Source: an uncultured Armatimonadetes bacterium (lineage in GTDB: Bacteria; Armatimonadota; Hebobacteria; Hebobacterales; Hebobacteraceae). From it: a DNA stretch of 64,000 nt. The position numbers were made by a program, and so were the translations under genes. This document shows, piece after piece, positions 3 to 55,404 of this stretch; position 1 is the stretch's first letter, and every line of letters begins with the position of its first letter. The notes beneath the pieces were generated by a model. It was not told the DNA's origin. It saw only the letters and a list, made by a program, of their open reading frames with translations, and did not search any database. The stretch is from the NCBI GenBank assembly GCA_963716175.1, contig OY970296.1, forward strand, positions 2,848,001 to 2,912,000, in the 5' to 3' direction.

Positions 3-713
3 CTGGCAAGTGGCCGCTGTTGCTTCGAGATGGCGCCACTGCTGGGGGCGCGGGCGCGCATCGCGGCCGAGCCGGAGCCGCAGGCCCTTTCCCATCTCTC
101 GGATGAGGAGGGGAATCCCATCAGCCTGTCACCGGCGCGGCTGCTGGTGTGGCGCCAGCCGGAGCAGGGGAAGGAGTATGTGATCGGTGCCGATGTGGGG
201 GAGGGCCTGGCCCATGGCGATCCCTCCGCCGCCTGTGTGCTGGACAGGGAGACAGGGGAGCAGGTGGCGGAGCTGCACGGGCGCATTGCCCCGGGGAGGT
301 TCGCCCGGTTGCTGGCGGCGCTCGGGATGCTCTACCTTGGGGCGGAGCTGGCGGTGGAGTCCAACAACCACGGCCATGCCACCCTGGACGCGCTCCACAA
401 CACCCTCAACTACTCGCCCCTGCACCGCTACCGGCGCTATGACCAATCGGGGCTGGCCGGGGAGGCGCTGGGCTGGCCCACCAACGCCCGCACCAAGCCG
501 CTGATGATCGACGAGCTGGCGGAGGCAATTGCGGAGGGGCACCTGCTGATCCATTCAGAGGGGCTGGTGGATGAATGTCTCACCTTCATCACCACCGACA
601 GCGGATCGCGGGAAGCCCAGCCCGGCAAACACGATGACCGGGTGATGGCAGCAGCCATCGCCTGGCAGGTGAGAAAGCGACCGTGGCCTCAGGTGTGGGG
701 CTTTCAGGTGTAG
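3..713 (+). CDS. Phage terminase large subunit, C-terminal nuclease part (5'-truncated by window edge)
   Basis: RNase H-like TerL motifs YVIGADVGEG, ESNNHG, GWPT, HDDRVMA. The frame is open to position 3 (LASGRCCF) and aligns with the full paralog at 32631-34220. Confidence 0.85.
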   Translation: MASGRCCFEMAPLLGARARIAAEPEPQALSHLSDEEGNPISLSPARLLVWRQPEQGKEYVIGADVGEGLAHGDPSAACVLDRETGEQVAELHGRIAPGRFARLLAALGMLYLGAELAVESNNHGHATLDALHNTLNYSPLHRYRRYDQSGLAGEALGWPTNARTKPLMIDELAEAIAEGHLLIHSEGLVDECLTFITTDSGSREAQPGKHDDRVMAAAIAWQVRKRPWPQVWGFQV

Positions 714-739
714 CCGCCAGCGGCGGGAAGTGCCGACCC

Positions 740-767
740 CGCGCGTGCCCGGCAATGGGCACGCGCG
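740..767 (+). terminator. 11-bp GC hairpin downstream of terL (terminator/REP-like)
   Basis: CGCGCGTGCCC-ggcaat-GGGCACGCGCG; only a weak T-tract follows. Confidence 0.45.
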
Positions 768-768
768 C

Positions 769-885
769 TTGTGGCGTCAGAAGATGCTATACCCTCTGCC
801 AAGCGGCCTGGGCCCGAACCGGCGTTTGTGGCGCGAGAAGATGCTATGGCATTTGTCAAGCGGCCTGAGGCACCGAACTGCGTGT
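769..885. repeat. Imperfect 57-bp tandem duplication spanning the IS110 right end and flank
   Basis: TTGTGGCG..AGAAGATGCTAT........CAAGCGGCCTG at 769 and again at 826. Confidence 0.8.
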
Positions 886-2055
886 CATGAGATGGTTGGC
901 TTCGTAGTCCGGATCAAAGGGCCGGCCCGTCTTGAGGAGGGCGAAGATGATCCGGAGCAGCTTGCTCATGCAGGCGATGATTGCTGCCTTGGGACGCTTG
1001 CCCTCGGCCAGTTTCCGAAGGTAGTACTGTCGCAGGACGGGGTTGCGATTGCGTACCGAGAGGGCGGCCAGGCAGAGGGCATGACGCAGGGCAGCAGGCC
1101 CACACTTGGATAGCTTGACCTTCCCCGCGAAGCGCCCTGACTGCCGGAACCGGGGATTGAGGCCAGCGAAAGCGATTGCTCGGGTGTCCGTATCCAGCTG
1201 CTCGACGGGGAGCTCAGCCAGGATCACTGGGACGGTGGCGGCGCCCAGGCCCTCGATGGTGAAGAGCAGATTCCCCTGCACTTGCTCCGCGATGGTGTTC
1301 TCCAGCGCCGCGAGACTGCGCTGCAGCTGGCGGATCGCCGCCACCAGCTGCCGCACCACCACGGCGTCGGTTGTGGTACCTTGCTCTCCTGGGATCGATC
1401 TGGCTGACGCCACCAGACGGTCGGCCCGCAGCTTTCCCACCCGGCGGGTGTTCGCTTTCAGCTGTGCCGCTCTGTCTGGCCGCGCCCGTGCCAGCATGCC
1501 TCCGGTGGGGTATCGATCGAGCACCGCCAACGCGCCGTAGCAGTCAAGGCGGTAGAACCCGCGCTCCACACTGGGGTTGACGCGCTCCAGCAAGCTGTGG
1601 AGCAGGTTCACCTGAGCCACCAGACTCGTCAGCAACGTGTGGCGGCTGCGAGTGAGCCGGGCCAGAGCTGCTTGCTCTGCAGCCACCGTTGCGCGAGGTC
1701 GGAGGGCTCGGCAGTAGCGAGCCAAGACGACGGCATCCACCCGATCGGTCTTCGTGCGCGCCATCAACACCTTGGCGAAGTGATGGCTGGAGCGAGCATT
1801 GACCACGCTCACCGTAAAGCCGGGCCGGGAGCGCAGGAACGCTGCCAGCCGGTGACCGTAGTTGCCGGTGGCTTCCAGGCAGACATGCAGCTCGCGGCCG
1901 TCGGGCAGCTTCGCCAGTGTGGTCAGCAGGCTCTCATAGCCAGCCGCATCATCGGTGAATTCGAAATCCTTCGTCCGCAGCTCGCCGTCTCCGTCCACCA
2001 CCGCCGCCATATGGCGGCCCTTGCTCACGTCGATCCCCACGAAGTACTGGCGCAT
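856..2055 (-). CDS. IS110 family transposase (DEDD recombinase)
   Basis: VGIDVSK, CLEATGNY, KTDRVDA, AGLNPRFRQSG motifs; ATG at 2055 preceded by GGAGGCAAGGAGA. Confidence 0.95.
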   Translation of the reverse strand: MRQYFVGIDVSKGRHMAAVVDGDGELRTKDFEFTDDAAGYESLLTTLAKLPDGRELHVCLEATGNYGHRLAAFLRSRPGFTVSVVNARSSHHFAKVLMARTKTDRVDAVVLARYCRALRPRATVAAEQAALARLTRSRHTLLTSLVAQVNLLHSLLERVNPSVERGFYRLDCYGALAVLDRYPTGGMLARARPDRAAQLKANTRRVGKLRADRLVASARSIPGEQGTTTDAVVVRQLVAAIRQLQRSLAALENTIAEQVQGNLLFTIEGLGAATVPVILAELPVEQLDTDTRAIAFAGLNPRFRQSGRFAGKVKLSKCGPAALRHALCLAALSVRNRNPVLRQYYLRKLAEGKRPKAAIIACMSKLLRIIFALLKTGRPFDPDYEANHLMTRSSVPQAA

Positions 2056-2099
2056 TCTCCTTGCCTCCACTATCATGGACGTGCGGTGGCCGGGGCCTC

Positions 2100-2300
2100 C
2101 TGGCTGCTCAGTCCTAACCCTCACTCGGCTCAATGTGTGGTCGTCTGCCACAAGATGCTTGATCTGGGCTTGAGGCTGGGCCGGGAGCGACGTTCTTCTC
2201 GGTTGGGTCAAGGCCCGAGTCGGAATAGTGTCGTCTCCCGGCTCACCGCCTCCCCCAACTTGCCTAACGGCCACTCCCCAATCCTGCATGAAGCCACCAC
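2100..2300 (-). ncRNA. Putative IS110 bridge RNA in the left non-coding end
   Basis: Target loop closed by GCCGGGAG-ACGAC/GTCG-CTCCCGGC with guides ATTCCGACT and CGAGAAG. Donor loop has AGCATCT and inner stem TGTGG/CCACA. Guides match the flanks and ends; boundaries approximate. Confidence 0.75.
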
Positions 2301-2476
2301 CATCCATGATACGAGTCGGATTCGCGCGGCCGGCGATGCCGAAGTGATACTCTCGGGGTGATCTTACCGTGGGCTGACAGGCATAGGTTGCTTTGCCACC
2401 GGGATGGACGGTCGCGGAGAAGGCTCTCGACCGAGGTCCGTCTGCTGCTGCGGTGGGCCGCTGTCGATCGCTGCGG

Positions 2477-4057
2477 CTAGTGAAGAGAGAAACCGGGTGC
2501 CGCCCGCGACGACACCGGGTTCAGAATATGAGGCGATTCTGTGGACTGGCCCGACCGCGCGTCGAAGTCTGCCAGTTCGCCATGTTCCCAGAGGTCGGTC
2601 AGCGCTTCCACGACAGTGGGATCGAACTGGGTGCCAGCCAGAGCCTGGATCTGCAGAACTGCTGCCAGAGGGATTGCCCCGCGCCGGTAAGGCCGGTTGG
2701 AGACGATGGCGTGGAAAGCATCTGCCACGGTAACCACGCGCGCCAGGAGGGGTATCTCCTCACCTTTCAGCCCGTCCGGATAGCCGCTGCCATCCCACCA
2801 CTCGTGGTGGCTGCGGATCATGGCGAGGGCCGAGGGACCAGGATTCAGGGGCTGGACAATGTCCTGGCCGATCAGCGTGTGCTGGTGGCAGGTATCAAGC
2901 TCTTCCTCCGTCAGAGGCCCCCGCTTCAGGAGCACGGCATCAGCGATCCCGATCTTGCCCAGATCGTGCAGAGGGCAGTAGGCCTCCAGGGCCTCGGCGG
3001 CACGCTCTCCCAGACCGAGCCTCTCGGCCAAGCGGAGCGCCAGCCAGGTGACGGCCTCCCCGTGGGCGGCGCTGTAGAAATCGCGGGCGGCGAGCGAACG
3101 CACCAGCGCGTGTAGGGTTCTGAAATAGGATTGCCTCAACTGCTGGTGAAGCTCCGCGCTCTCGATGGCTTTGCTGGCCATGTTGGCCAGGGTGGTGAGC
3201 AGGTTCAGGTCCTCGGTATCGAAGGTCGCCTGTCGGGTCGCTGCCAGGGAGCCGCTCACGACATCGGAGACCTTCATCGGGGCGGAGATAGTGGCGCGGA
3301 TCTGATCCCAGGTTCGCAGTCGGTGCCCGATCTCGGGTGCGTCATGCAGACAGCGGGGCGACGGGCCTGTCTTGGCCGCAGCCTTGGCGGCCGCAACCGG
3401 GTCGTCGGGACCTCCGTCGCTTGGGCCGAGCAGGCCCGCGCTGCGCGTGTGAATGCACTCGCCTTTCGAGTTGTCCAGCAGCACGAGCGAGGCGGCATCG
3501 GCCTGCACCTGGGCTACCAGGGCCTCCACTACCAGCTCCGAGATGCGCTCGATATCTAGTGTCCCGGCCAGATGAACGCTGGTTTCGCAGAGCTTGTTGA
3601 GGCGGCTGATCCGGGCATCGAGGGCCCGGGCAGTGTCGTGGAGTTGGTCGATCAGGCTGCGGTTCTGGGCGCGCTGCTCGCGTTCCTTATCGGCGAAATA
3701 GGCAACGGTGCAAGCGAGAAATGCCAGCAGGCCGATGAGCAGCAGCGGCTCGGAGTAGTCGGCCGTCGTGATCTCCTGCCCATAGGCGACCAGGAGCACG
3801 AAAGCCAGGCCCAGCACCCCCACCAAGCAGAGGGCCACCCATAGGAGCTGCTGCCTGCGCCGGTCCGGGGTGTAATCCCCCTGCCGGGCCAGCGACATCA
3901 GGCCTGCCAGGCTGTCTTGTGCAGCGCCCAACTCTGCCCCCCTTTCACCGGTGGCCGCGGGAGCGCCCACCTGGCCGCTCCAAGGAGCAGGCGACCGACG
4001 ATCTCGCCAGAGCTGGTCCCGGACAGGCGGTTCTATGCCCTTGTGGCGTACCCGCAC
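2477..4057 (-). CDS. Membrane-anchored GAF + HD-GYP phosphodiesterase (start uncertain, possibly 3898)
   Basis: Two TM segments, GAF-like region, HDLGK and HHEWWDGSGYPDGL motifs. Confidence 0.9.
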   Translation of the reverse strand: MRVRHKGIEPPVRDQLWRDRRSPAPWSGQVGAPAATGERGAELGAAQDSLAGLMSLARQGDYTPDRRRQQLLWVALCLVGVLGLAFVLLVAYGQEITTADYSEPLLLIGLLAFLACTVAYFADKEREQRAQNRSLIDQLHDTARALDARISRLNKLCETSVHLAGTLDIERISELVVEALVAQVQADAASLVLLDNSKGECIHTRSAGLLGPSDGGPDDPVAAAKAAAKTGPSPRCLHDAPEIGHRLRTWDQIRATISAPMKVSDVVSGSLAATRQATFDTEDLNLLTTLANMASKAIESAELHQQLRQSYFRTLHALVRSLAARDFYSAAHGEAVTWLALRLAERLGLGERAAEALEAYCPLHDLGKIGIADAVLLKRGPLTEEELDTCHQHTLIGQDIVQPLNPGPSALAMIRSHHEWWDGSGYPDGLKGEEIPLLARVVTVADAFHAIVSNRPYRRGAIPLAAVLQIQALAGTQFDPTVVEALTDLWEHGELADFDARSGQSTESPHILNPVSSRAAPGFSLH

Positions 4058-34233: not shown

Positions 34234-34378
34234 GGCTGGGCCGGGAGCGACGTTCTTATCAGTTGGGTCAAGGCCCGAGTCGGATTCCTGTCGTCTCCCG
34301 GCTCACCGCCTCCTCTCACTTGCCTGCCGGCCACTCCTCAATCCTGCATGAGGCCACCACCACTATCCATGATACGAG
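34234..34378 (-). mobile_element. Orphan IS110 left end (bridge RNA 5' part and target loop only)
   Basis: Close homolog of 2174-2315 including TATCAT and the CT core; donor loop and transposase absent. Confidence 0.85.
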
Positions 34379-50937: not shown

Positions 50938-51120
50938 GGGCGCTGCGGCGCAAAGGCAGAAGTTCCCAGCAGGTCGCGGCCGCCTGCCACGGTCAGCGAG
51001 CCCCGGGCCGGCTGCGCTGGGCCGCTAAGCCGGATGCTGTCGCCCCAGGGCTTCTGGCCCGTTCTGACGGTGCAGATCAGTTTCGGAAGACTGCCTGCAC
51101 ATCCTTGCGCTCTGACCCCC

Positions 51121-52499: not shown

Positions 52500-55127
52500 T
52501 CAGTCCGTGGCGATCTCGTACCAGAGACTGTGGTAGCCGGGCGAGATGGTGAATGTCAGGCGGCCGTTCGCCAGCGAGGACGCGACCGGCATGATGCGCC
52601 TGCCAGTGGCGTCGAGTGCGTAGACCGATGCGGTGCGCGCTTCAGTTGGCACGGTGATGGTGGCGGTGACAGTCTCAGCCATAGTCGGCCCGCTGGCCCA
52701 TGAGTTCTTTGCGAAGGTGCGGTCAGCGTTCCACTCCAGGCCCTGGTTCTCGACCTCATCCACGACGGTCAGCAGCAGTGACCGTGACTTGGTCATCGCC
52801 TTCGCGTCCATGCTGGCGAGCACGAGGGAGACGAAGTTGCGCTGGGTCAGCTCCATCGCCACAGTCACGCCGTCCAGGTCCACCGACTTGCCGCCGAGGA
52901 AGCCCACGACGGTTTTCGCGCATTGGGAGTCTACGGTGAACAGGGCTTCGGCCGGCTTCTCACTTGACCACTGGAGTGAGGGCGCGCCGGTGCCGCCTCG
53001 CCGCTCGATCTGGATCGGTCCGGCCCCGCTCGCGAAGCGGACGGCGGTGCGGCGGGCGATCATGTCACGGGCGGAAACAGGCGTGCCCTGCGCGGCCTGC
53101 CAGAAGCCGTAGTCCGTGCGCTGGGTGACGACCTCGGCGATCCTGTCTGCGGGAACGACGAGGATTTGCTCAGCAGGGGCTGGAGCAACGCAGCCGCGGA
53201 GGAAGATCTCAGCGGCCGCAGGCAGGAAGGCGAGCTTGCCCGGGTGCGCGGACTGATCGAAGAAGCCGTCGATATGGTCGCGGTCCCATCCCTTCGCCTC
53301 GCCATGGTACGCGAAGAGGAATACTCCGTCCCAGTCCTGCCAGGCGGCGTAGGCGAAGAGCATGGGCACAGCCTCAGAGGCATACTCATTGGGCGCGGGC
53401 TCGTCGTATTCGCTCACGGTGAACGGCATGCCCGCGACGCGATGCATCGCCAGACCTGCGAGCGTGCCGCCGCCCTGATCGCGAACCATCGGCGTGTTCT
53501 CGATGAGGTAGTCCTCGGAGTCCCAGTCCTGGTGCGGGAAGCTGGGGTGCTGCCAGTAGGCGTGCATGTCGATCCAGTCCATGTGTGACTCGCGCCAGAC
53601 GCCGCCGAGTCCGCCGTAGCTGGCCTGAGTGCAGGTGACGGGCGCCTTCGCGCCGAGGGTGCGCTGGATGTAGTCGCGCATGCCCCGGGTGAAATCGCGC
53701 TCGACCTGGATGAGGTAGGTGACGTAGTCCCGGCCCTCCGGGCTCTCGGCGACCACCGGGAGGGAGATGCTGGCACCCTTGAGGGACTCGCCGGGAGCCA
53801 ACTCGACCGCTCCGCCGCCCGGACGCACGGCGACGTCGGCGAGGAAGACGTCGCCGGCCTCGCCGCCGAAGACGAAAGAGAGGCGCGTGTGGTTGGAGAC
53901 AGTGGTTCGGGCGATGAAGCTGAAGCTGCAGCGCTGCCACTGGGGCTTGAGGGCAACGCGTGCGTCGAGGCCGACATTGCGCCACGGATCCTCGTCCAGC
54001 AGCACGCCGACGCTGATGGAGCGCGGGACAACGGAGCGGCCTGCGAAGGAGACAGTGTAGGTTTCGCCGTCCTCTAGGTTCAGACCGAGCTGATGGAACT
54101 GGAGGTGCCAATCGGTGCCGTCCAGCCGCAGCTTCGCCAGTCGCAGAGCGCGGCCGGCCGGCGCGCCGGCGTCCTGCGGGATTGGCTCCAAGGTTGTCTC
54201 AGCGCTTGTTCCCTCGTGCTGCTCGAGCGTCCAACCTTCCGTGCCGCCGACGAATCTCGGATTGCGCAGCAGGTTCGCGCCGAGGGGCTTGGCACGCGCG
54301 TTCCAGGCCGCGAGCATCTTCTCGGTCGTGCCGTACTTGCGGGAGAGGAACTGATTCCAGCCGGCGGCGAGGATGTTGCGATAGTAATCGGGCAGGCCGG
54401 GCACCACGTCGGCCGAGGCGAGGAGGGAGTCTTCGTTGGTGATCTCGATCAGGGCGACGGTCGGCTCATCGGCATACGTCGACTTCGTGTAGGGATTGAG
54501 GTGGGTGAGGAGCTGCTGGGCGTAGAGCTTCTGGCGCTCGATCATACCAGGCACGAAGTAGCCGACGACCTTGCCCATCTCATCGATCTTATCGGTGTCA
54601 CGGAACCCGTCAGCCTGGTTGAAGCCGCGAGAGACGTGCAGGTTCATGTCCACGTAGATCCCGTGGAGCTTGAACTGATAGATGAGGTAGTCGAGGCGGT
54701 CGAGGCTTTGCGGGTCGAGCCGGTCGGTCTTCTTGCCATATGAGCCGCCGGAGATGAAGAACATGTTGGGCTCGGCCCAGGTGGCATCCATGTGGTGCAG
54801 GCGAACGCAGTTGAAGCCGAGCTTATGCATCCTGGCGGCGATCTGCGGCGCGTCCTCTTTCGCGGGGAAGCACGCCCCGGCGGCCAGGTTCGTGCCGACG
54901 AAGCGCACGCGGCGTCCCGTTCCATCGAAGAAGTGGCCGTCCTTGATGACGACGCGACGGCTCTCATCGATGGGGGCGGGGTTCAGCGCAGAGACGTCGA
55001 CAACGGTCTTCGAAGCATCGTTCCAGGGCATGACGAAGGGGAACTGCTTGGGCGCACTGAGTGCCGCCTGAGCCAGAGTCGCGGCCAGCAACAACGCTCC
55101 GGCGGCAATCACCACGGATTTCGTCAT
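52500..55127 (-). CDS. Secreted clan GH-A (GH5-like) glycoside hydrolase with inserted CBM4/9 domain
   Basis: RVRFVGTN, VRLHHMD, EITNEDS (acid/base), HAYWQHP, TVSEY (nucleophile); insert NLLRNPRF...WHLQF. Confidence 0.88.
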   Translation of the reverse strand: MTKSVVIAAGALLLAATLAQAALSAPKQFPFVMPWNDASKTVVDVSALNPAPIDESRRVVIKDGHFFDGTGRRVRFVGTNLAAGACFPAKEDAPQIAARMHKLGFNCVRLHHMDATWAEPNMFFISGGSYGKKTDRLDPQSLDRLDYLIYQFKLHGIYVDMNLHVSRGFNQADGFRDTDKIDEMGKVVGYFVPGMIERQKLYAQQLLTHLNPYTKSTYADEPTVALIEITNEDSLLASADVVPGLPDYYRNILAAGWNQFLSRKYGTTEKMLAAWNARAKPLGANLLRNPRFVGGTEGWTLEQHEGTSAETTLEPIPQDAGAPAGRALRLAKLRLDGTDWHLQFHQLGLNLEDGETYTVSFAGRSVVPRSISVGVLLDEDPWRNVGLDARVALKPQWQRCSFSFIARTTVSNHTRLSFVFGGEAGDVFLADVAVRPGGGAVELAPGESLKGASISLPVVAESPEGRDYVTYLIQVERDFTRGMRDYIQRTLGAKAPVTCTQASYGGLGGVWRESHMDWIDMHAYWQHPSFPHQDWDSEDYLIENTPMVRDQGGGTLAGLAMHRVAGMPFTVSEYDEPAPNEYASEAVPMLFAYAAWQDWDGVFLFAYHGEAKGWDRDHIDGFFDQSAHPGKLAFLPAAAEIFLRGCVAPAPAEQILVVPADRIAEVVTQRTDYGFWQAAQGTPVSARDMIARRTAVRFASGAGPIQIERRGGTGAPSLQWSSEKPAEALFTVDSQCAKTVVGFLGGKSVDLDGVTVAMELTQRNFVSLVLASMDAKAMTKSRSLLLTVVDEVENQGLEWNADRTFAKNSWASGPTMAETVTATITVPTEARTASVYALDATGRRIMPVASSLANGRLTFTISPGYHSLWYEIATD

Positions 55128-55404
55128 CTCCTCCACTCCTGAGACCTCACGGGGACTCTAGCAAACCGATGATGCTTTGAGCGGCCGCCAGCCAAACCGA
55201 CACTGGTTTCGCTCGTCGCGCCGGACATGCCTGCCAGCAATAGCGCTGTTCAAGAGCCTGGCAGATACCAACGCCCGTTTGTGGCGACGAAACGGAAGTT
55301 CTGGGTAACCCCCCATTCCCTTGCTGGGCGCCTTGACAGCGGTCTCATTGGTGGTTGACGAGTACTGGCGGCCTTGCAGGCGCTTAGCATGGATAGGAGG
55401 CGCC

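What the first reader, a model, noticed from the sequence alone, without database searches (positions are those of the whole stretch)
834..2323. IS110 with a directly readable bridge-RNA code and circle-junction promoter
Seen (minus strand): the right end TTGACAaatgccatagcatCT joined to the left end cgTATCAT gives a 17-bp promoter. The reconstructed target is AATCCGA-CT-TCTCG, inside a GCGCGA/TCGCGC hairpin. The left target guide ATTCCGACT (2218-2226) matches at 8/9. The right guide CGAGAAG (2195-2201) is complementary to CTTCTCG at 7/7. The donor guide AGCATCT (2153-2159) equals the right-end terminus. Established: this is the IS621 bridge-RNA architecture. Inference: an intact programmable recombinase with an extended 7-nt right-target match.
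Basis: partly seen in the sequence, partly recalled or inferred. Interest (0 to 1): 0.7.

Follow-up and report, generated by a model that had tools for sequence, protein, structure and literature searches.

The report
IS110 insertion sequence with bridge RNA
This is a complete IS110-type jumping gene whose left end encodes a guide ("bridge") RNA that spells out both its own ends and its insertion site; it is a well-understood kind of element, so the find is correct but ordinary.

Summary
On the minus strand, a 1,475-bp IS110-group element runs from 2313 to 839. The dinucleotide CT flanks it on both sides (2315-2314 and 840-839). It encodes an intact 399-aa DEDD/Tnp recombinase (2055-856) and has a 258-nt non-coding left end.

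I also found a right donor guide at 2132-2124. Joining the right end to the left end gives TTGACA-17-TATCAT; the integrated locus has no such promoter.

Comparison gives stronger evidence than the single-copy matches. I used a second full copy, two fragments in the same genome, and 10 related metagenome copies. The right target guide occurs in five alleles, and each sits beside a matching right flank: 60 of 63 positions pair, and 96 of 362,880 permutations do as well.

Some points are weaker. Stem covariation is weak because the clade is too conserved. The "hairpin" around the target is not general. This copy's own left guide carries the one mismatch.

Side observations: most copies sit in a conserved ~30-bp target motif, and a diverged second right end plus flank follows this copy.

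Verdict: a new member of a known kind (IS621-type bridge-RNA element). No RNA or activity data exist.

The parts
2314..2322 (-). Left target half (AATCCGA + core CT at 2315-2314), host DNA
   Evidence: The same ..TCCGACT precedes the left end in copy B, fragment C and 9 of 10 metagenome copies.
2056..2313 (-). Non-coding left end (258 nt), starts CGTATCAT
   Evidence: Similarity to copy B begins here, plus 8 nt of target.
2306..2311 (-). -10 box TATCAT of the junction promoter
   Evidence: The same hexamer is called in the natural right-end/left-end junction of L017.
2109..2299 (-). Predicted bridge RNA. The start is inferred as about 7 nt after the -10 box; the end is taken as the end of the donor-binding stem-loop. 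Both ends are inferred.
   Evidence: No RNA data.
2180..2242 (-). Target-binding stem-loop: 7 bp + bulge + 4 bp outer stem, 13-nt internal loops, 3-bp inner stem
   Evidence: Predicted by single-sequence MFE and RNAalifold. 15 pairs, 99-100% paired in 12 copies. Similar stem-loops with compensatory changes occur in distant loci L030 and L052.
2218..2226 (-). Left target guide ATTCCGACT
   Evidence: Matches the flank at 8/9.
2195..2201 (-). Right target guide CGAGAAG
   Evidence: 7/7 complementary to CT+TCTCG. Covaries with the flank across copies.
2109..2178 (-). Donor-binding stem-loop (my model: 5-bp base stem, 5-bp second stem, internal loops, 4-bp distal stem)
   Evidence: Drawn after local folds, so it is post hoc. 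14 pairs, 93-100% paired, almost no variation. RNAalifold on the whole left end drew it differently.
2153..2159 (-). Left donor guide AGCATCT
   Evidence: Identical to the last 7 nt of the right end including CT. Invariant in 12 copies.
2124..2132 (-).
   Evidence: Complementary to CTCGTATCA (core plus left-end start) at 7 of 9, with two central mismatches. A discontiguous pairing of this kind is described for IS621 (passage in PMC11208160).
856..2055 (-). Recombinase gene, 399 aa, stop TGA at 858-856 inside the -35 box
   Evidence: Pfam PF01548 (E 9.5e-31) and PF02371 (E 2.8e-17). PDB ISCro4 E 1.9e-35, IS621 E 1e-32.
854..859 (-). -35 box TTGACA of the junction promoter
   Evidence: Conserved in 13 of the 14 right ends (the diverged relic has TTGGCA) and in L018 and L020; L022-L024 have TTGATG.
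839..847 (-). Right-end terminus ATAGCAT + core CT (left donor half)
834..838 (-). Right target half TCTCG, host DNA
815..838 (-). Conserved target motif beyond the guide-paired bases (CGCSACAAAC-N4-GTT)
   Evidence: Present in 10 of 17 distinct right flanks. Also present at IS-free sites of the genome.
765..878 (-). 57-bp tandem repeat, 2.0 copies, 82% matches. The second unit holds a diverged right-end relic (810-782, ending CT) and flank TCTGACGCCACAAG (781-768).
   Evidence: TRF.
34234..34376 (-). Left-end fragment C of a sibling copy: target-binding loop only, guides AATCCGACT / TGATAAG, flank ATTCCGACT

Best explanation
A complete IS110-group insertion sequence of 1,475 bp sits in a short conserved host motif.

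The inferred cycle, by analogy with IS621:
1. The element leaves as a circle, or sits in tandem, so that its right end joins its left end at one CT.
2. That joint creates a sigma-70-type promoter: the -35 box lies in the right end and overlaps the recombinase stop codon, and the -10 box lies in the left end.
3. The promoter drives a ~190-nt bridge RNA from the left end.
4. [quoted passage not shown]
5. A second loop pairs with the element's own joined ends: AGCATCT with the right end, and TGAGCCGAG with CT-CGTATCA.
6. The DEDD/Ser recombinase exchanges strands at CT.

What is shown and what is inferred:
- Shown here: boundaries, domains, guide matches, guide-flank covariation, and that the promoter exists only in the joined form.
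- Inferred: transcription, RNA ends, protein-RNA binding, activity of this particular copy.
For: Boundaries:
- Copy B is 94% identical. Similarity to it starts 8 nt before CGTATCAT and runs to the right end.
- Left-end fragment C and right-end fragment D end at the same CT.

Protein:
- Both IS110 Pfam domains are present.
- It matches the solved IS621 and ISCro4 recombinases.
- D9, E61, D104, D107 and S306-G307 are invariant in 15 aligned relatives. They lie in the motifs that align to the ISCro4 structure. The catalytic set D11/E60/D102/D105/S241 of IS621 comes from passages of PMC11208158.

Promoter:
- The scan finds TTGACA-17-TATCAT (11/12) at a natural right-end/left-end joint in contig L017; shuffles give a mean of 0.0.
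- The same scan finds 0 sites in window 700-2500.

Guides:
- Right guide against right flank: 60 of 63 positions pair in 9 copies that carry five guide alleles.
  - CGAGAAG with TCTCG
  - TGATAAG with TATCA
  - TCAGAAG with TCTGA
  - ACCGAAG with TCGGT
  - CTAGAAG with TCTGG (6/7)
- 96 of 362,880 permutations of flanks do as well. With the 7 distinct guide-flank pairs, 12 of 5,040 do.
- The most distant copy, L018, changed 7 positions of the left flank, and its left guide followed at 6 of them.
- Shuffle controls gave 0/20,000 and 6/20,000.

Structure:
- The target-binding stem-loop is predicted by MFE and by RNAalifold.
- 97.9% of cells are paired in my 32-pair model, against 28-43% when the partners are slid.
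- A covariance model finds only copies A, B and C in the 4.56-Mb genome.
- It also finds target-loop-like hairpins with compensatory stem changes upstream of two recombinase genes of 30% and 38% identity (L030 E 0.011; L052 E 0.36).
Against: - There is no thermodynamic signal: MFE -75.2 kcal/mol against -74.9 for shuffles, z = -0.06.
- Stem covariation is thin. 23 of 32 pairs never vary, and only 2 have a change on both sides, both in a small 5' hairpin.
- The donor-binding loop was drawn post hoc; RNAalifold on the whole left end paired it otherwise.
- No Rfam family matched.
- Left-guide covariation alone is weak (permutation 0.05, carried by one locus).
- Positions 1-2 of the left target do not track the guide.
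- Copies are related, so the permutation figures overstate independence.
- This copy has two private changes in guide regions: ATT for AAT in the left target guide, and A for G two bases before the left donor guide. It may therefore be slightly impaired.
Confidence: 0.88

Rival explanations
1. The element is of this kind, but copy A is a resting or decaying copy that no longer moves. On this view its guides are a fossil record of an insertion made by a sibling RNA (AAT... left guide), possibly acting in trans.
For: - A's left guide mismatches its own flank, while the guide of copy B, fragment C and 9 of the 10 metagenome copies matches that flank 9/9.
- A has a private A-for-G change next to the left donor guide.
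- The genome holds only 2 full copies and 3 relics.
- No exact free target exists in the genome: 0 exact and 5 one-mismatch matches of the 13-nt target.
Against: - The ORF is open and all catalytic motifs are kept.
- The right end and the junction promoter are identical to those of the other copies.
- Positions 1-2 of the left target are mismatched in 8 of 13 copies, so a mismatch there appears tolerated.
Confidence: 0.3
2. Site choice is made mainly by something other than the RNA guides. A protein or a DNA structure would recognise the conserved motif next to the target (CGCSACAAAC-N4-GTTT), and guide-flank matches would be secondary.
For: - 10 of 17 distinct right flanks carry the motif beyond the 5 guide-paired bases.
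- The AAAC/GTTT arms stay fixed while the centre varies.
- A structure-gated second requirement is claimed for ISPpu10 (abstract of 10.64898/2026.03.19.712850).
Against: - 6 of 17 right flanks lack the motif yet still pair with the guide where the guide is known (L015 6/7, L018 7/7).
- The five guide alleles track the 5 flank bases, which motif recognition alone would not produce.
- The motif also occurs at IS-free sites, so it may simply be the host repeat in which cognate 14-mers are found.
Confidence: 0.12
3. The true right end lies about 25 nt further out. On this view the conserved flank belongs to the element and CT at 840-839 is not the crossover point.
For: - The flank is conserved in most copies regardless of the left flank.
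- Similarity between copies A and B continues for 24 nt past CT.
Against: - L017 joins ...ATAGCATCT directly to CGTATCAT.
- Fragment D and loci L015, L019, L047 and L018 diverge 0-5 nt after CT.
- IS-free sites carry left-target-like and motif halves side by side (C1:147917 and C1:2966596).
- The flank bases covary with the right guide.
Confidence: 0.03

Closest known systems
IS621 (E. coli), the reference bridge-RNA IS110 element (PMC11208160, PMC11208158; passages read)
   Same: - DEDD RuvC-like domain plus Tnp domain with a catalytic Ser (PDB 8wt6 matched at E 1e-32).
- CT core.
- Long left end and short right end.
- Promoter rebuilt across the joined ends.
- Two stem-loops with internal loops.
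- The left guides have top-strand sense and the right guides are complementary.
- 9-nt left target guide including the core.
- Discontiguous right donor guide.
   Different: - The protein is 399 aa against 326 aa. About 70 extra residues (166-239) lie between the matched RuvC and Tnp stretches.
- The right target guide pairs 7 nt (core + 5), against 4 in wild-type IS621. The paper says some orthologues naturally have longer ones.
- Different target motif.
- No Rfam or other curated RNA model links them.
ISCro4 transposase (PDB 9t56)
   Same: Best solved-structure match, E 1.9e-35, over residues 4-165 and 240-383.
   Different: It has the same ~70-residue length difference.
ISPpu10 / ISPpu9 (Pseudomonas putida), IS110 elements that insert into repeated intergenic sequences (abstracts only: 10.64898/2026.03.19.712850; PMC12288879, search listing)
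   Same: Insertion into a conserved, repeated host motif. A palindromic feature sits beside the guide-paired target.
   Different: - There the hairpin is said to lie 5' of the target and to be required. Here the palindrome lies 3' of the target, is absent from 6 of 17 flanks, and its role is untested.
- Here the host motif is low-copy: about 5 free sites were found.

Membership tests
IS110 family (IS110 group) | DEDD RuvC-like N-terminal domain | tested here: met
   PF01548, E 9.5e-31, residues 6-161. D9, E61, D104 and D107 are invariant in 15 relatives.
IS110 family (IS110 group) | C-terminal Tnp domain with conserved Ser-Gly | tested here: met
   PF02371, E 2.8e-17, residues 262-345. S306-G307 is invariant. 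It aligns to the ...ESG... stretch of ISCro4.
IS110 family (IS110 group) | The same core dinucleotide on both sides of the element; crossover at the core | tested here: met
   CT at 2315-2314 and 840-839. The same holds in copy B and the metagenome copies. Whether typical inverted-repeat ends or a duplication are absent was judged by eye only.
IS110 family (IS110 group) | Left non-coding end much longer than the right | tested here: met
   258 nt on the left against 17 nt after the stop codon on the right.
Bridge-RNA element (IS621 type) | Promoter reconstituted across the joined right and left ends | tested here: met
   In silico only. TTGACA-17-TATCAT at a natural junction; none in the integrated locus.
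Bridge-RNA element (IS621 type) | ncRNA with a 5' hairpin and two stem-loops that have large internal loops | tested here: inconclusive
   The target-binding stem-loop is robust. The donor-binding loop is plausible but post hoc. The 5' hairpin is small. z = -0.06, and 23 of 32 pairs are invariant.
Bridge-RNA element (IS621 type) | Four guides complementary to target and donor halves, each including the core | tested here: met
   Matches of 8/9, 7/7, 7/7 and 7/9. Shuffles gave 0/20,000 and 6/20,000.
Bridge-RNA element (IS621 type) | Guides covary with flanks across orthologues | tested here: met
   Right guide: 60/63 positions, permutation 96/362,880. Left guide: 74/81 positions, permutation 0.05. 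Copies are related, so independence is overstated.
Bridge-RNA element (IS621 type) | RNA is made, binds the recombinase and directs recombination | not testable with these tools
   No RNA run holds the sequence. This is no evidence either way.
Rfam RNA families | Match to a curated covariance model | tested here: not met
   0 matches at E <= 1 in window 600-2600. None of the 4,227 models scored; whether any of them models bridge RNAs I did not check.

The most novel reading that the evidence does not exclude
The clade shows natural reprogramming. Five right-guide alleles each sit at a cognate variant of one low-copy host motif. The conserved palindrome (AAAC-N4-GTTT) lying 8-20 bp to the right of the crossover would then be a second, guide-independent requirement for insertion: a 3'-side counterpart of the 'dual-match' gate claimed for ISPpu10. 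The diverged right-end relic with flank TCTGA behind copy A would record an earlier visit to the same place by a sibling carrying the TCAGAAG guide.
Probability: 0.12. Interest if true: 0.5.

Novelty: new member of a known kind. Interest (0 to 1): 0.3.

Why it matters
It adds a GC-rich, environmental (sediment-associated) clade to the bridge-recombinase catalogue. This clade has a naturally long right target guide and a recombinase about 70 residues longer than IS621. It also gives a compact natural experiment: five guide alleles with their cognate flanks, which supports the RNA-guided model without bench work. It does not change what is known about the mechanism. The published survey already covered thousands of such RNA-target pairs (figure legend in PMC11208160). 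Its supplementary tables, which I could not open, may already list relatives of this element.

Tried and rejected
- **Close orthologues in genomes.** The search for related loci in genome contigs gave 1 locus at 43% identity. In the same family, 2 of 15 genomes had a match, counting this one; the other holds a broken fragment. In a phylum sample, 2 of 401 genomes had a match. So relatives had to come from metagenome contigs.
- **Sequencing runs.** No RNA holder is listed. I laid contigs of 4 sediment DNA runs. They hold relatives at about 90-95% likeness, but no piece spans the locus and no clean circle, tandem or empty-site joint was seen. The three joints listed are single contigs with short sides, and I give them no weight.
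- **The element's 3' interior as a third unit of the 57-bp repeat, or the conserved flank as a derivative of the element's interior.** Rejected. Local alignment of the interior against the flank beat shuffles clearly in only 1 of 12 loci.
- **The conserved flank as a high-copy REP-like repeat.** Not supported. Pattern searches found about 5 IS-free sites. A 13-nt target search gave 0 exact matches.
- **The target motif as a known RNA.** 0 Rfam matches in four 2-kb loci around IS-free sites.
- **Copy B's left flank.** It belongs to another repeat with 3 more copies in the genome. I did not pursue it.
- **My first donor-loop drawing (CCTCA/TGAGG stem).** Dropped because L013 and L018 break it; replaced by the model.
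Full report
**What is there.** Read on the minus strand, the region holds an open frame of 399 codons (2055-856). Before it lie 258 non-coding bases that begin CGTATCAT at 2313. After it lie 17 bases that end ...ATAGCATCT at 839. CT stands immediately outside the left end (2315-2314) and forms the last two bases on the right (840-839). The protein carries the two domains of IS110 transposases, PF01548 (E 9.5e-31) and PF02371 (E 2.8e-17). It matches the solved ISCro4 (9t56, E 1.9e-35) and IS621 (8wt6, E 1e-32) recombinases over residues 4-165 and 240-383. About 70 residues in between have no counterpart.

In an alignment with 14 relatives of 60-95% identity, D9, E61, D104, D107 and S306-G307 are invariant. 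They lie in the motifs GIDVSK, CLEAT, KTDxVDA and SG, which align to the ISCro4 structure. The catalytic set of IS621 (D11, E60, D102, D105, S241) is taken from passages of PMC11208158.

**Boundaries.** The window lies in a single-contig genome of 4.56 Mb and 66% G+C. That genome holds four related pieces:
- a second full copy B at C1:44977-46484, 94% identical in DNA and 93% in protein;
- a 143-nt left-end fragment C inside the window (34376-34234);
- a 176-nt right-end fragment D;
- copy A itself.

All left ends start at CGTATCAT after ..TCCGACT. All right ends stop at ATAGCATCT. The element is therefore 1,475 bp if one CT is counted. Seven other IS110-family genes of about 27-32% identity exist elsewhere in the genome; they are not part of this element.

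**Relatives.** Close relatives are rare in isolate and MAG genomes. They occur in 2 of 15 genomes of the family and 2 of 401 of a phylum sample, both counts including this genome. A protein search found 14 relatives of 399-401 aa at 62-95% identity, all from metagenomes. One scan of metagenome contigs returned 67 loci, ten of them (L009-L018) with a near-complete gene at 62-96%. These ten, with A and B, give 12 left ends. Together with partial loci they give 17 distinct right ends.

**The guides.**
- ATTCCGACT at 2226-2218, matching the flank at 8/9;
- CGAGAAG at 2201-2195, the exact complement of CT+TCTCG;
- AGCATCT at 2159-2153, equal to the right-end terminus.

I add a right donor guide, TGAGCCGAG at 2132-2124. 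It is complementary to CTCGTATCA at 7 of 9 positions with two central mismatches. A discontiguous pairing of this kind is described for IS621 (passage of PMC11208160). The strand senses agree with the published model: left guides pair with the bottom strand, right guides with the top strand, and the core is included in all four. In 20,000 shuffles of the left end, the target-guide arrangement never arose and the donor-guide arrangement arose 6 times.

**Natural covariation.** This is the strongest evidence. The right target guide has five alleles in the clade, and the five bases to the right of CT follow them:

| Right guide | Right flank | Loci | Match |
|---|---|---|---|
| CGAGAAG | TCTCG | A, B | 7/7 |
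| TGATAAG | TATCA | L010 | 7/7 |
| TCAGAAG | TCTGA | L014, L016 | 7/7 |
| TCAGAAG | TCTCA | L009 | 6/7 |
| TCAGAAG | TCTGG | L013 | 6/7 |
| CTAGAAG | TCTGG | L015 | 6/7 |
| ACCGAAG | TCGGT | L018 | 7/7 |

In all, 60 of 63 positions pair. Only 96 of 362,880 permutations of flanks among loci do as well, and 12 of 5,040 do when identical guide-flank pairs are collapsed.

On the left, L018 differs from the rest at seven flank positions, and its guide follows at six. Overall 74 of 81 positions match, but the permutation value is only 0.05 because one locus carries the signal. Positions 1-2 of the left target vary freely (AA, TA, AC, AT) without the guide following. The copies are related, so these figures overstate independence.

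**Copy A's own guide.** A's left guide (ATT...) mismatches its flank (AAT...). The guide of B, C and 9 of the 10 metagenome copies (AAT...) matches that flank 9/9. Conversely, A's guide equals the flank of fragment C. A also has a private A-for-G change two bases before the left donor guide. Either A changed after insertion or a sibling RNA acted in trans. I cannot tell which.

**Promoter.** TTGACA (859-854, overlapping the stop codon) and TATCAT (2311-2306) are 17 nt apart once the ends are joined at CT. Contig L017 contains such a joint in nature: a copy followed directly by a 70-nt left-end relic, so this is a tandem and not an assembled circle. There the scan calls exactly this promoter, 11 of 12, with shuffles at a mean of 0.0. 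The same scan finds nothing in the integrated locus, window 700-2500. Transcription itself is not shown. No RNA run holds the sequence, which says nothing either way.

**RNA structure.** The target-binding stem-loop (2242-2180) appears in the single-sequence fold and in RNAalifold. It has a 7+4-bp outer stem with one bulge, 13-nt loops on each side carrying the two guides, and a 3-bp inner stem. My full model has 32 pairs and is 97.9% paired across 12 copies, against 28-43% when partners are slid. However, 23 pairs never vary and only two show changes on both sides. The donor-binding loop was drawn after looking at local folds, and RNAalifold on the whole left end paired it differently. The fold energy is no better than that of shuffles (z = -0.06), and no Rfam family matches.

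A covariance model of the two loops finds only A, B and C in the genome on the right strand; it also gives two weak antisense hits at the same places. Among 59 more distant loci it finds target-loop-like hairpins upstream of two recombinase genes of 30% and 38% identity, with compensatory stem changes (L030 E 0.011; L052 E 0.36). So the architecture is supported for the target loop and plausible for the donor loop.

**The target.** 122 of 1,000 flank shuffles give an inverted repeat as long, and only 2 of 9 reconstructed targets have one of 6 bp or more.

What is conserved is a motif to the right of the guide-paired bases, CGCSACAAAC-N4-GTT(T). It is present in 10 of 17 distinct right flanks (A, the relic behind A, B, L009, L010, L013, L014, L016, L020, L035). 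It is absent from 6 (D, L015, L019, L047, L018, L022-24). One right end abuts a left-end relic instead. Related sequences without any element occur at about five places in the genome. Two of them have a left-target-like half directly beside the motif: C1:147917, which is one core base away from the target predicted for fragment C's guides, and C1:2966596.

The motif therefore belongs to the host target, not to the element. What it is I could not find out: there is no Rfam match and it is low-copy. Whether its AAAC/GTTT arms are a second recognition feature, as claimed for a 5' hairpin of ISPpu10 (abstract), is open.

**The repeat behind copy A.** TRF reports a 57-bp period, 2.0 copies, 82% matches at 765-878. 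The second unit is a diverged copy of the last 29 bases of the right end (5 differences) followed by TCTGACGCCACAAG. Its five flank bases, TCTGA, are the cognate of the commonest guide allele (TCAGAAG), not of A's own.

A recent duplication is unlikely. The first unit's right end is identical to the clade consensus while the second has drifted. An earlier visit by a sibling element is attractive, but I could not reconstruct a consistent order of events. A third, internal unit is not supported. This remains unexplained.

**Verdict.** The element is a new member of the IS621-type bridge-RNA IS110 group. Naturally long right target guides are already mentioned in print (passage of PMC11208160), and the mechanism is established. 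Interest is modest.

**Papers and what I saw of them:**
- PMC11208160 and PMC11208158: passages found by term.
- 10.64898/2026.03.19.712850 and 10.64898/2026.08.31.748434: abstract and outline.
- Other titles: search listing only.
- Supplements: not seen.

Noticed in passing
window 3-713 (+): A partial gene that runs off the window start matches phage terminase large-subunit families: phrog_38407 (E 3e-27), phrog_24361 'terminase' (E 9e-17) and phrog_2 (E 4e-6). It has no Pfam hit. Copy A sits just past its 3' end and a palindrome (about 745-770), so the element may lie at the edge of a prophage.
   Followed up: partly
window 765-878 (-): 57-bp tandem repeat across the right end/flank junction. 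The second unit is a drifted right-end relic whose flank (TCTGA) fits a different guide allele than copy A's. The order of events is unexplained.
   Followed up: partly
window 34234-34376 (-): 143-nt left-end fragment of a sibling copy. It has a different right target guide (TGATAAG) and is cut off after the target-binding loop. The predicted target of its guides is one core base away from an IS-free site at C1:147917.
   Followed up: partly
window 51031-51088 (-); also C1:2803560-2803615, C1:4505986-4506041 and the left flank of copy B (C1:46476-46560): Another repeat family of at least 120 nt that ends ...GGCGACAGCATC. Copies B and L015 of the IS110 element sit exactly at its end. In L015 and L019 the other flank is the start of an ORF on the opposite strand (MKEVVSIVKPETILAWQRRL...), possibly another transposase. 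Not identified.
   Followed up: no
window 55255-55290 (-), and C1:54720 (-): Two IS-free sites, ...ACTTCCGTTT..GCCACAAACG.., resemble the left flank of the distant copy L018 joined to the conserved motif. The first lies about 150 nt upstream of an 878-aa ORF (52500-55136, minus).
   Followed up: no
C1:2841521 and C1:3032110 (+), outside the window: Two sites share TTCTCGCGCCACAAAC followed by CTCGTATATTGG. The latter resembles the first 12 bases (core + left end) of the element at 10 of 12, but no further left-end similarity follows. Meaning unknown.
   Followed up: no
window 2477-4057 (-): The neighbouring gene encodes a 526-aa GAF + HD-GYP-type (HD_5) protein (Pfam). It converges on the terminase-like gene, and the element sits between the two 3' ends.
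   Followed up: no
L017 (metagenome contig, 1798 bp): A copy whose gene is out of frame (1,196 nt; only a 222-aa product is on record) stands head-to-tail before a 70-nt left-end relic. This gives a natural right-end/CT/left-end joint.
   Followed up: partly
copy B and most relatives, about 100 nt before the stop codon (window equivalent about 955-962): The left-end start word CGTATCAT recurs inside the gene (codons for L-R-I-I-F-A) in B and 7 of 10 metagenome copies. A has CGGATCAT there. Probably coincidence of a conserved peptide.
   Followed up: no
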